Origin: a virus
IMG/VR virus record: IMGVR_UViG_3300030060_008003
Location: 27,502 to 91,501 of that record
Reading direction: 5' to 3' (one strand)
Length of the DNA stretch: 64,000 bases
Positions 62,269-63,350 of the stretch are shown here, piece by piece. Made by a program: the position numbers and the translations under genes. The notes below the pieces were generated by a model that was not told the origin of the DNA, did no database searches, and saw only the letters and a program-made list of their open reading frames with translations. Position 1 is the stretch's first letter; the number at the start of each line of letters is the position of its first letter.

Positions 62269-62457
62269 ATGACGGTAGATCTTACGAAAAGTGATAAGGA
62301 GTACGCTAAGCAGCATGGTCTTACGTACGGAGAAATGCGAGACTTCAAAGAAGATATGATTCGCGAAGAAGAAATGATGAGAACTTTCTACGAGACGAAG
62401 GAGAAAGAGCGCATCGATTTTAAAAATTCACCTCAATCTATTTACGCAGCATGGTAG
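62269..62457 (+). CDS. small hypothetical protein
   Basis: GGAAC-N5-TATAAT-N6-ATG. Confidence 0.7.
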   Translation: MTVDLTKSDKEYAKQHGLTYGEMRDFKEDMIREEEMMRTFYETKEKERIDFKNSPQSIYAAW

Positions 62458-62717
62458 ACGATAATATTAAAAATTGTATAAATTGTGGACGAGAAGTTGA
62501 AAAAGCAAGAGTTGAGTTCGGATTTAAAAACTGCGCTACGTGCGCGCATGCCGGCCCTGACGTCCCTAGACCGAAAGGTAGGATGGTATATGGTCATAAA
62601 ACCGGTGCAGAAATTGAGATCCTTTCAGAAGAGTCTTGGAACGAGAATAAGAAGTATTTTATCCCGAATGGTGCAAGGTCGGCGGTAAAGAACTTTAGTC
62701 GGTCTATTTGTTCATAA
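62451..62717 (+). CDS. C4 zinc-finger protein (DksA/TraR-like finger)
   Basis: CINC...ARVEFG..NCATC. Confidence 0.65.
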   Translation: MVDDNIKNCINCGREVEKARVEFGFKNCATCAHAGPDVPRPKGRMVYGHKTGAEIEILSEESWNENKKYFIPNGARSAVKNFSRSICS

Positions 62718-62853
62718 GAAGAGCCTCGATTCTATCGAGGCTCTTTTTGGTTTCGACTTTGTGTTTGGCTAATTCAGCCATTATGCTAATGCAAAAAAAC
62801 AGTATACCAAGTCCTATAATTGTACGAGTCCACCTGGCCTCGTCATGACTCAT
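62704..62853 (-). CDS. small single-TM protein (49 aa), not in the ORF track
   Basis: MSHDEARWTRTIIGLGILFFCISIMAELAKHKVETKKSLDRIEALLMNK*; TAATG-coupled to the upstream gene. Confidence 0.55.
   Translation of the reverse strand: MSHDEARWTRTIIGLGILFFCISIMAELAKHKVETKKSLDRIEALLMNK
62719..62748 (+). terminator. intrinsic terminator
   Basis: AAGAGCCTCGAT-tct-ATCGAGGCTCTT followed by T run, just after the stop at 62717. Confidence 0.85.
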
Positions 62854-63215
62854 TACTTGTCGTCTTTATCTTCGTCGTCGTGCTCGTCCTCTTCATCAGA
62901 GCCAAGCTTCTTAACTTTTTTCTTAGCTTTAGCTCCATGAGCAGTCTCTTCATCATGCTCTTTGATAACAACAACTCTAGCTTCATCAGCAGGTACAGAG
63001 ACTAATTGACCCTTATACTCAACATAATACTCTTCAATGACTCCATCACTTGTTAAGCTATGATCAACAACTGCGAACTCTTCATCTTCTTCACCCAGAC
63101 CTGGGTGTGCAATTGTCTTCGCTCAGGTATGTTGAATAGCGTCTGCTGCGCTGTTAATAAAATTTTCATCTAATCTCTTTAAGATTTCATTTGCTGCTTT
63201 ATCAAATTCACTCAT
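62853..63215 (-). CDS. candidate selenoprotein (120 aa, UGA at codon 31), not in the ORF track
   Basis: MSEFDKAANEILKRLDENFINSAADAIQHT-[TGA 63123-63125]-AKTIAHPGLGEEDEEFAVVDHSLTSDGVIEEYYVEYKGQLVSVPADEARVVVIKEH...DKDDK*; SECIS-like hairpin just downstream of the TGA. Confidence 0.78.
63092..63107 (-). promoter_or_regulatory. bacterial-type SECIS element (apical hairpin)
   Basis: mRNA CACCCAG-GU-CUGGGUG starting 16 nt after the UGA; CAGGUCUG apex as in E. coli fdhF. Confidence 0.75.
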
Positions 63216-63223
63216 AGTAATAT

Positions 63224-63229
63224 TATTTA
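63224..63229 (-). promoter_or_regulatory. T4-like late promoter (TAAATA) of the candidate selenoprotein gene
   Basis: AATAAATA, then 8 nt, then ATG at 63215. Confidence 0.7.
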
Positions 63230-63275: not shown

Positions 63276-63350
63276 GCTCCTATAGTTCAACGGATAGAAC
63301 AAGGCACTTCTAATGCTTAGATCCAAGTTCGAGTCTTGGTAGGAGTACCA
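63276..63350 (+). tRNA. tRNA-Arg(UCU)
   Basis: acceptor GCTCCTA/TAGGAGT, anticodon loop CTTCTAA, GTTCGAG T-loop, encoded CCA. Confidence 0.93.

What the first reader, a model, noticed from the sequence alone, without database searches (positions are those of the whole stretch)
62853..63229. Candidate phage-encoded selenoprotein: in-frame UGA plus bacterial SECIS in a late gene missed by ORF calling
Seen: on the minus strand a late promoter (TAAATA, 8 nt before the ATG at 63215) opens a frame with 30 codons, then TGA (63123-63125), then 89 more sense codons with no Met, ending at TAA 62853-62855, which overlaps the next ATG. The context is Q-H-T-U-A-K-T-I-A-H-P. From 16 nt after the UGA the mRNA forms CACCCAG-GU-CUGGGUG, a GC-rich inverted repeat in an AT-rich genome, with a possible lower stem GACAAUUGC/GCAGUUGUU. 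Known: bacterial Sec insertion uses a hairpin just 3' of the UGA with an apical G bound by SelB; the E. coli fdhF apex is CAGGUCUG, 3 nt closer to the UGA than here. From memory and unverified: marine T4-like phages have a small protein family with HxCA..V.H...H.L..DG....Y.V, which would put Cys at this position. Inference: the phage borrows host SelA/B/C/D to make a Sec-containing, His-rich metal or redox protein, possibly packaged in the head. Selenoproteins are rarely reported in phages, and this would restrict the host to Sec-using bacteria.
Basis: partly seen in the sequence, partly recalled or inferred. Interest (0 to 1): 0.95.

Follow-up and report, generated by a model that had tools for sequence, protein, structure and literature searches.

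The report
Phage gene encoding selenocysteine via SECIS
A small gene of this uncultured marine T4-like phage runs through an internal UGA "stop" that every related phage sequence keeps where cyanophage relatives have cysteine, and a co-varying RNA hairpin of the bacterial selenocysteine-insertion type always follows, so it most likely encodes a selenoprotein, which no paper I could search reports for a virus of bacteria.

Summary
On the minus strand, ATG 63215 opens 30 codons, then TGA 63123-63125, then 89 sense codons to TAA 62853-62855. A 6-bp hairpin with a GGUC loop sits 21 nt after the UGA.

The TGA is not an error.
- All 77 related marine viral and metagenome loci that cover the site carry TGA there, at 98% down to 31% protein identity. 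None has TGG, TGC or TGT.
- Database proteins that show Trp at this residue are gene-caller artefacts of code 4. Four could be traced to DNA, and all four are TGA.
- All 48 distinct sequences keep a hairpin at the same offset. The loop is always xGUy, and the stems differ by compensatory changes (13 hairpin variants).
- This meets the published bacterial SECIS consensus.

A profile search found a large family in T4-like cyanophages with 116 motif sites, all cysteine, and no conserved hairpin. His29, Sec/Cys31, His52 and His87 are invariant on a small SH3-like barrel.

TGA still acts as a stop in these phages. No suppressor tRNA, tRNA-Sec or selD was found in the fragments held.

The host is unknown and selenium incorporation is untested. 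The function is unknown; a metal or redox site is my inference.

This scan found the same family earlier on another genome (e1-5810516, e1-5810529).

The parts
63224..63229 (-). TAAATA motif 8 nt upstream of the ATG, resembling a T4-type late promoter
   Evidence: Read. An (A/T)ATAAATA-like motif lies 5-9 nt before the ATG in most main-clade and 'KAPPFGES'-clade homologs. The 'MKTF' clade has an AAGGA Shine-Dalgarno-like site instead. Promoter function is inferred and was not tested.
62853..63215 (-). Selenoprotein candidate gene: 120 codons including UGA31, plus TAA stop
   Evidence: There are 153 database relatives and 78 DNA loci. Third-codon-position variation dominates on both sides of the UGA. 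In-frame synonymous:non-synonymous codon differences downstream are 5850:5130, against 1625:9495 and 713:10331 in the other two frames.
63123..63125 (-). In-frame UGA, proposed Sec31 codon
   Evidence: TGA in 77/77 loci covering the site. There are 0 TGB variants of the cassette in IMG/VR against 10 TGA. It aligns with an invariant Cys in 116 motif sites of homologs.
63092..63107 (-). SECIS-like hairpin: CACCCA (63107-63102), loop GGUC (63101-63098), UGGGUG (63097-63092)
   Evidence: A hairpin is present in 48/48 distinct sequences, 21-23 nt after the UGA. Loops are GGUC, AGUU, YGUUU, AGUUC or GUU, and there are 13 stem variants with changes on both sides. The apex is identical to E. coli fdhF.
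62704..62853 (-). 49-aa single-helix membrane ORF; its start overlaps the selenoprotein gene's stop (TAATG)
   Evidence: It is conserved directly downstream in 23 related loci. Family members that carry a long C-terminal extension lack it.
63276..63350 (+). tRNA-Arg(TCT), neighbour on the opposite strand; not a suppressor
   Evidence: Relatives carry tRNA-Met(CAT), Leu(TAA) and Arg(TCT) nearby, and none has a UCA anticodon.

Best explanation
The gene encodes a 120-residue phage selenoprotein. During infection, the host's SelB carrying Sec-tRNA(Sec) would bind the in-ORF hairpin 21 nt downstream of UGA31 and deliver selenocysteine to the ribosome. Translation then continues to the TAA. This is the E. 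coli fdhF mechanism, and the gene has the same loop apex as fdhF.

The product is an N-terminal helix followed by a small five-stranded SH3-like barrel. Sec31 lies two residues after invariant His29. His52 and His87 are also invariant, so I infer a His3-Sec metal-binding or redox site.

The Sec form arose within a cysteine-containing domain family that is widespread in T4-like cyanophages.

Shown here: the conserved UGA, the coding constraint on both sides, the Cys homologs, and the conserved and co-varying hairpin that fits the bacterial SECIS consensus. Inferred: decoding as Sec by host machinery, the function, and late expression.
For: 1. The UGA is conserved in 77/77 loci from IMG/VR, TARA and JGI marine metagenomes, at 98-31% identity, while the flanking codons vary synonymously (ACC/ACA/ACT/ACG TGA GCG/GCA/GCT). 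The IMG/VR cassette pattern gives 10 TGA and 0 TGB.

2. The Sec/Cys pair is present. A profile of 19 TGA forms found 166 proteins. Among those listed, the motif H-x-C-[AS]-x-x-[VIL] occurs at 116 sites, all Cys. H29, C/U31, A32, H52, G58, Y63 and H87 are invariant in a joint alignment of 42 sequences. The Cys forms are in 179-269 cultured Synechococcus and Prochlorococcus phage records, with TGT or TGC codons.

3. The hairpin is present in 48/48 distinct sequences. [quoted passage not shown] The contiguous stem is 4-7 bp, and the loop starts 21-23 nt after the UGA. These are the bSECIS constraints listed in PMC13188914. Stems differ between clades: CACCCA/UGGGUG, GCUCCUC/GGGGAGU and GUCCUC/GAGGGC. 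The encoded peptide changes with them (HPGLGE, APPFGE, GPQFEG), so the structure is what is kept.

4. The hairpin is absent or inconsistent at that offset in the Cys forms, and model R1 has no hit in the cyanophage loci.

5. TGA is still a stop. 26 long ORFs of the window end in TGA, and more than 20 distant family members end their own ORF in TGA after KKKKK.

6. The frame is under coding constraint on both sides of the UGA.

7. The 19 Sec forms sit on one side of a single branch (SH-aLRT 99), next to Cys forms, in a quick tree. This is compatible with one Cys/Sec switch.
Against: - No experiment exists, and no RNA or protein data were found.
- The host is unknown, so the presence of selA/B/C/D cannot be checked.
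- No tRNA-Sec or selD occurs in this record or four related records, although these are only 27-43% complete.
- The per-sequence excess of hairpin stability over synonymous recodings is modest (fraction 0.007-0.34), because the peptide H-P-G-L-G itself favours pairing.
- In the codon-register alignment, only 2 of 6 pairs show changes on both sides.
- U·G variants of the core hairpin alone reach only -6.4 kcal/mol, weaker than the -7.5 cut-off unless flanks are included.
- No Rfam SECIS family matches.
- No member of the TGA clade has Cys. That is unusual for selenoprotein families and means the clade offers no internal Sec/Cys alternation.
Confidence: 0.78

Rival explanations
1. Programmed stop-codon read-through without selenium. 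The hairpin slows the ribosome or hinders release factor 2, and an ordinary near-cognate tRNA (Trp, or Cys) decodes UGA at low frequency. This would give a 30-aa peptide plus some full-length protein, as with the Q-beta A1 read-through protein.
For: The UGA is conserved and the downstream frame is coding. The host's Sec machinery is not shown. Database gene callers produce an open frame with W.
Against: The aligned residue in 116 homologous motif sites is an invariant Cys next to invariant His. A Trp there would destroy the site. The hairpin has the specific SelB-type features: a GU loop at fixed spacing and the fdhF apex. A merely stable structure would not need these. No homolog has TGG.
Confidence: 0.1
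2. SECIS/SelB-type recoding that inserts cysteine or another residue instead of Sec, through a tRNA with a UCA anticodon charged with Cys. From my own knowledge, such tRNAs have been described in a few bacteria.
For: The sequence signatures would be the same as for Sec: UGA, hairpin and Cys homologs.
Against: No UCA-anticodon tRNA occurs in the 91.5-kb record or in 78 loci. If Cys were the product, TGY codons would be expected to alternate with TGA within the clade, yet none does.
Confidence: 0.04
3. UGA is a real stop. The product is a 30-aa peptide, the hairpin is a regulatory or terminator element, and the downstream frame is expressed separately or not at all.
For: Standard-code gene calling stops at residue 30. 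Some database entries start just after the UGA at TTG or ATG-like codons.
Against: There is no Met codon in the 89 downstream codons. The Cys homologs align continuously across the site. Both flanks are constrained in the same frame. The invariant residues H29 and U31 lie upstream of or at the UGA, while H52 and H87 lie downstream.
Confidence: 0.04
4. The phage or its host uses a reassigned code in which TGA is a sense codon (code 4 or 25), or the phage carries a UGA suppressor tRNA, as stop-recoded phages do.
For: Gene callers chose code 4 for many short contigs, giving W.
Against: The window is densely and coherently coded under table 11, with 26 long ORFs ending in TGA. Family members end their own ORF in TGA. 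Only one UGA-plus-hairpin candidate exists in 91.5 kb. No suppressor tRNA was found.
Confidence: 0.02

Closest known systems
Bacterial selenoprotein genes with an in-ORF SECIS read by SelB (prototype E. coli fdhF, Sec140; bSECIS consensus as summarised in PMC13188914)
   Same: An in-frame UGA is followed by a stem-loop inside the coding region. The apical loop is GGUC with the octamer CAGGUCUG, identical to fdhF. G is followed by U in the loop, the spacing falls within 16-37 nt, and homologs have Cys.
   Different: The gene is encoded by a virus of bacteria, not a cell. The loop lies 3 nt further from the UGA than in fdhF. There is no bulged U in the upper stem. The protein is an uncharacterised small barrel, not a known redox enzyme. 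The machinery would have to be borrowed from an unidentified host.
Cyanophage 'H-x-C-A-x-H-V' domain proteins (PHROG 22379, 11470 and 764; for example P-HM1 PHM1_163, S-ShM2 SShM2_183, ACG-2014d gp155, annotated hypothetical or 'possible cytitidyltransferase')
   Same: It is the same domain by profile search (E down to 1e-13 for Cys forms), by PHROG hits of the Cys forms and by predicted fold (BFVD top hits). The H, C/U, H, H invariants are shared.
   Different: These have Cys (TGT/TGC) instead of UGA and no conserved hairpin. The domain is often repeated or embedded in 400-800-aa proteins near the head genes. The window's protein is a stand-alone 120-aa form. Their function is unknown as well.
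Selenoproteins of eukaryotic viruses (glutathione-peroxidase homologs of poxviruses; own knowledge, touched on in PMC8310308)
   Same: A virus encodes a selenoprotein and relies on the host's Sec machinery.
   Different: Those use a eukaryotic 3'-UTR SECIS and a captured host enzyme. Here the SECIS is bacterial-type and in-ORF, and the family is specific to phages.
Stop-codon-recoded phages (TAG or TGA reassigned in late genes by phage suppressor tRNAs)
   Same: An in-frame stop codon sits in a probable late phage gene that standard gene calling misses.
   Different: There is a single site in 91.5 kb, TGA is still used as a stop, and there is no suppressor tRNA.

Membership tests
Bacterial-type selenoprotein gene (SelB/SECIS-dependent) | In-frame UGA conserved among homologs, with coding conservation on both sides | tested here: met
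   77/77 loci carry TGA. Codon-position and synonymous/non-synonymous patterns support the same frame on both sides.
Bacterial-type selenoprotein gene (SelB/SECIS-dependent) | Cys-containing homologs with Cys aligned to the UGA | tested here: met
   116 Cys sites in profile hits. The column is invariant in the 42-sequence alignment. TGT/TGC codons were verified in 9 loci.
Bacterial-type selenoprotein gene (SelB/SECIS-dependent) | bSECIS consensus: 3-9 nt apical loop, 4-16 bp upper stem, G in the first two loop positions (G[G|U]), and 16-37 nt between UGA and loop | tested here: met
   48/48 distinct sequences have loops of 3-5 nt, stems of 4-7 bp, G then U in the loop, and 21-23 nt spacing. 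Criteria are from PMC13188914.
Bacterial-type selenoprotein gene (SelB/SECIS-dependent) | SECIS minimum free energy <= -7.5 kcal/mol | tested here: met
   In the window, the hairpin alone gives -7.9, the 30-nt segment -9.0, 54 nt -14.6 and 81 nt -22.3. In relatives with a U·G pair, the core alone gives -6.4 but 60-nt folds give -10 to -11.
Bacterial-type selenoprotein gene (SelB/SECIS-dependent) | Hairpin maintained by compensatory change and lost in Cys forms | tested here: met
   There are 13 hairpin variants. The closing pair is A-U, C-G or G-C, and level 5 is A-U, U-A or C-G. In the strict codon register, only 2 of 6 pairs change on both sides. Cys forms have no consistent hairpin.
Bacterial-type selenoprotein gene (SelB/SECIS-dependent) | Sec machinery (selA, selB, selC, selD) available in the translating cell | not testable with these tools
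   The host is unknown. Both genome-contig scans were empty, and relatives cannot be drawn for a virus record. No tRNA-Sec or selD occurs in 5 phage records that are 27-43% complete.
Bacterial-type selenoprotein gene (SelB/SECIS-dependent) | Selenium actually incorporated at the UGA | not testable with these tools
   This needs 75Se labelling or mass spectrometry.
Stop-codon-reassigned phage or host (TGA as sense) | TGA is not used as a terminator, in-frame TGAs occur in many genes, and a suppressor tRNA is present | tested here: not met
   26 long ORFs end in TGA. The family's own stop is TGA in more than 20 loci. There is one candidate site in 91.5 kb. No tRNA(UCA) was found.
Cyanophage HxCAxHV domain family (PHROG 22379/11470) | Significant profile match and shared invariant residues | tested here: met
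   A profile built from TGA forms retrieves the Cys forms. Invariants are shared. Foldseek on BFVD gives these proteins as best hits, E 3e-4. The window protein alone gives no PHROG hit.

The most novel reading that the evidence does not exclude
This is a genuine selenoprotein family of bacterial viruses. A clade of uncultured marine T4-like phages replaced an invariant cysteine of a His-rich domain with selenocysteine and carries its own fdhF-like SECIS. The phage therefore depends on the Sec machinery and selenium supply of its still unknown host. Sec would act as a metal ligand or redox centre in a phage-specific small barrel protein.
Probability: 0.72. Interest if true: 0.9.

Novelty: new variant of a known kind. 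Interest (0 to 1): 0.85.

Why it matters
If this holds, selenocysteine recoding is used by viruses of bacteria as well as by cells and a few eukaryotic viruses.
- It would give a sequence marker that limits the host of an abundant, uncultured marine phage clade to Sec-decoding bacteria. According to a 2026 preprint read, that excludes Pelagibacter.
- It would link phage production to selenium availability in the ocean.
- It would point to an uncharacterised His3-Cys/Sec domain, common in cyanophages, as chemically important.
- It exposes a systematic annotation error. Public protein sets hold this family either with a false Trp (code-4 calls) or truncated at the UGA.

Tried and rejected
- **Sequencing error or pseudogene:** rejected (77/77 TGA).
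- **'Homologs have Trp':** rejected as an artefact.
- **Direct searches with the window protein:** tblastn against cultured phages, PHROGs and Pfam all found nothing. The DNA search found only the tRNA.
- **The look-up of encoding contigs:** The DNA behind most database W-forms therefore could not be read. Only 4 could be traced through loci held here.
- **Rfam:** no SECIS family matches.
- **RNA model R1:** its alignment kept the codon register, so it could not represent the 1-nt register shift of the hairpin in the KAPPFGES clade. I counted pairs from the loop outward in a script instead.
- **Fold searches:** they gave only a generic SH3/Tudor-like barrel. Foldseek on PDB had no hit at E<=0.001, and VIA-align gave Z<5. 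No function follows from this.
- **Protein atlas:** only viral hypothetical clusters.
- **Sequencing runs:** no RNA holder is listed.
- **Literature:** five searches found no phage-encoded selenoprotein.
it forms in the window but is not conserved.
- **Careful phylogeny:** it did not finish in the time allowed. Only the quick tree is reported.

Full report
**1. What is in the sequence**

On the minus strand, TAAATA lies at 63229-63224 and is followed after 8 nt by ATG at 63215. Thirty codons later comes TGA at 63125-63123, in the context Q-H-T-[UGA]-A-K-T-I-A-H-P. Then 89 sense codons without a Met run to TAA at 62855-62853. That stop overlaps (TAATG) the start of a 49-aa single-helix membrane ORF.

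The hairpin CACCCA-GGUC-UGGGUG lies at 63107-63092. The 81-nt region folds at -22.3 kcal/mol, z = -2.8, and none of 200 shuffles folds as well.

I checked the fdhF comparison on E. coli K-12. There the UGA is codon 140, the apex is the same octamer CAGGUCUG, and the GGUC loop starts 18 nt after the UGA, against 21 nt here.

**2. The record and its genetic code**

The record is a 91.5-kb fragment of an uncultured marine T4-like phage, about 43% complete by CheckV. It has a T4-type terminase, gp10-like baseplate proteins and tail-collar fibres. Its large terminase subunit is at most 39% identical to that of any cultured phage.

The standard code fits. Long ORFs are densely packed and 26 of them end in TGA. 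The only tRNA is Arg(TCT).

**3. The TGA is real and conserved**

The protein database returned 153 relatives, and all 119 listed with the motif show Trp at residue 31. The DNA says otherwise.

- In 78 loci fetched from IMG/VR, TARA and JGI marine metagenomes, at 98% down to 31% protein identity, every one of the 77 that cover the site has TGA. None has TGG, TGC or TGT.
- The neighbouring codons vary synonymously around it.
- Four database 'W' proteins could be matched letter for letter to DNA held here. All four are reproduced only under code 4. The Trp is therefore a gene-caller artefact on short contigs.
- Other database entries are truncated and start just after the UGA.
- A degenerate pattern for the UGA-hairpin cassette finds 10 IMG/VR contigs with TGA and none with TGB.
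- Contigs of four marine runs from four studies show variants at 63120 and 63126-63128. None is listed at 63123-63125.

**4. Both sides of the UGA are translated in one frame**

Among 30 distinct main-clade sequences, third codon positions carry most of the variation. Upstream the counts by codon position are 16/11/27, and downstream they are 26/17/49.

Downstream of the UGA, in-frame synonymous:non-synonymous codon differences are 5850:5130. In the other two frames the ratio collapses to 1625:9495 and 713:10331.

Invariant residues lie on both sides of the UGA: H29, U31, A32, I35, P38, H52, L54, D57, G58, E62, Y63, Y64, V65, A76 and H87.

**5. TGA is not reassigned**

More than 20 distant family members end their own ORF in TGA after a KKKKK tail. 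A scan of the whole record for TGA with open frames on both sides plus a downstream hairpin gives only this site in a plausible gene. No tRNA with a UCA anticodon occurs in the record or in the 78 loci.

**6. The hairpin behaves like a bacterial SECIS**

All 48 distinct sequences fold into a hairpin at the same place.
- The contiguous stem is 4-7 bp.
- The loops are GGUC (21), AGUU (20), CGUUU (4), UGUUU, AGUUC and GUU. G is always within the first two loop positions and is always followed by U.
- There are 21-23 nt between the UGA and the loop.

These are the constraints of the published bSECIS consensus: loop 3-9 nt, stem 4-16 bp, G[G|U] at the start of the loop, 16-37 nt spacing, and MFE <= -7.5 (PMC13188914).

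The stems differ between clades: CACCCA/UGGGUG, CAUCCA/UGGAUG, GCUCCUC/GGGGAGU, GUCCUC/GAGGGC and UCCUC/GGGGA. The encoded peptide changes with them (HPGLGE, HPSLGE, APPFGE, GPQFEG, HPRFGE). The structure is conserved through changes on both strands rather than as a by-product of one peptide.

There are caveats.
- In the strict codon-register alignment, only 2 of 6 pairs change on both sides, because one clade shifts the 3' arm by one base.
- The per-sequence gain over synonymous recodings is modest.
- U·G variants of the bare core reach only -6.4 kcal/mol.
- Rfam has no matching family.

**7. Cysteine homologs exist**

A profile of 19 diverse TGA forms, searched against 1.8 billion representatives, found 166 proteins. 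Among the listed hits, the motif H-x-C-[AS]-x-x-[VIL] occurs at 116 sites, all Cys. The only exceptions are the code-4 'W' forms of the TGA clade.

In a joint alignment of 42 Sec and Cys forms, H29, C/U31, A32, H52, G58, Y63 and H87 are invariant.

The Cys forms occur in 179-269 records of cultured Synechococcus and Prochlorococcus T4-like phages. There they appear as one or two domains inside 400-800-aa proteins, a few genes upstream of the head genes. They use TGT or TGC codons and have no consistent hairpin at the homologous offset.

It also confirms the statement in the earlier scan note e1-5810529.

In a quick maximum-likelihood tree (70 columns, so weakly resolved), the 19 Sec forms lie on one side of a single branch (SH-aLRT 99), next to Cys forms of the 'SHSLTEDG' type. 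This is compatible with one switch.

**8. The protein**

AlphaFold2 with this alignment gives an N-terminal helix (residues 3-26) and a five-stranded barrel (residues 31-85, pLDDT 81-89). The acidic and lysine-rich tail is disordered.

PDB searches give only generic SH3/Tudor-like matches, with no Foldseek hit at E<=0.001 and VIA Z<5. The best BFVD hits are the same cyanophage proteins.

There is no Pfam family. PHROGs 22379, 11470 and 764 are of unknown function. The 'cytidyltransferase' label is carried over from a neighbouring or fused true cytidylyltransferase.

Three invariant His plus Cys/Sec suggest a metal or redox site. This is inference, and the model's coordinates could not be inspected.

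**9. Host**

The host is unknown. Two genome-contig scans were empty. No tRNA-Sec or selD occurs in five related, incomplete phage records.

A 2026 preprint reports that 135 complete Pelagibacter genomes lack selC, whereas Actinomarina has the full Sec set. SAR11 is therefore an unlikely host if the Sec reading is right. I cannot name the host.

**10. Verdict**

The three classical sequence signatures of a selenoprotein gene are all present and strong: a conserved in-frame UGA, Cys homologs, and a conserved co-varying SECIS.
- Read-through as Trp conflicts with the invariant Cys.
- Code reassignment conflicts with TGA stops in the same genes.
- A true stop conflicts with invariant residues on both sides of the UGA.

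I put Sec insertion at about 0.78.

Five literature searches found no phage-encoded selenoprotein. Two reviews or surveys of prokaryotic and marine selenoproteomes mention none.

The same scan reported this family earlier on another genome (e1-5810516, e1-5810529) and other phage UGA-SECIS families elsewhere. Those are AI notes, not independent evidence.

Noticed in passing
protein database hits P0002-P0135: Public protein sets hold this family in two wrong forms: with Trp at the Sec position (short contigs called under code 4), or truncated and starting just after the UGA at TTG or ATG. Four W-forms traced to DNA are all TGA.
   Followed up: partly
L007, L024, L056, L070, L075-L077 (alignment A3): Many family members carry a conserved extreme C-terminal tail after an acidic stretch, roughly H-G-x-[RK]-P-K-L-x-[GC]-x-x-[VIL]-x-x-[RKL]. 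The window's protein lacks it and instead has the 49-aa membrane ORF directly downstream. This may be a docking or targeting peptide.
   Followed up: no
window 62704-62853 (-): The 49-aa single-helix membrane ORF starts on the selenoprotein gene's stop (TAATG). It is conserved in that position in 23 related loci and absent where the selenoprotein has the long C-terminal extension.
   Followed up: partly
upstream of the gene in about 30 loci: An (A/T)ATAAATA motif lies 5-9 nt before the ATG with no Shine-Dalgarno site in the main and KAPPFGES clades, which suggests near-leaderless late transcripts. The MKTF clade has AAGGA/AAGGAG instead.
   Followed up: partly
L079 1934-3241, L081 2345-4135 (cyanophages P-HM1, ACG-2014d): The proteins carrying the Cys domain are annotated 'cytidyltransferase' or 'possible cytitidyltransferase'. 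The nucleotidyltransferase motif (FGRF.PPT.GH) is in the neighbouring gene, so the label looks like annotation carry-over.
   Followed up: partly
window 63086-63112 (table 2): In all four marine metagenome runs, summed contig depth peaks 3- to 10-fold over the SECIS hairpin segment. It is the most conserved stretch of the gene across co-occurring strains.
   Followed up: no
window 63276-63350 (+) and related loci: The gene sits next to a small tRNA cluster in relatives: Met-CAT in 26 loci, Leu-TAA in 21 and Arg-TCT in 20. The window has only Arg-TCT.
   Followed up: no
window 62451-62717 (+): An 88-aa protein with a CxxC...CxxC zinc-ribbon pattern, convergent with the selenoprotein operon, is conserved next to it in 39 loci.
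   Followed up: no
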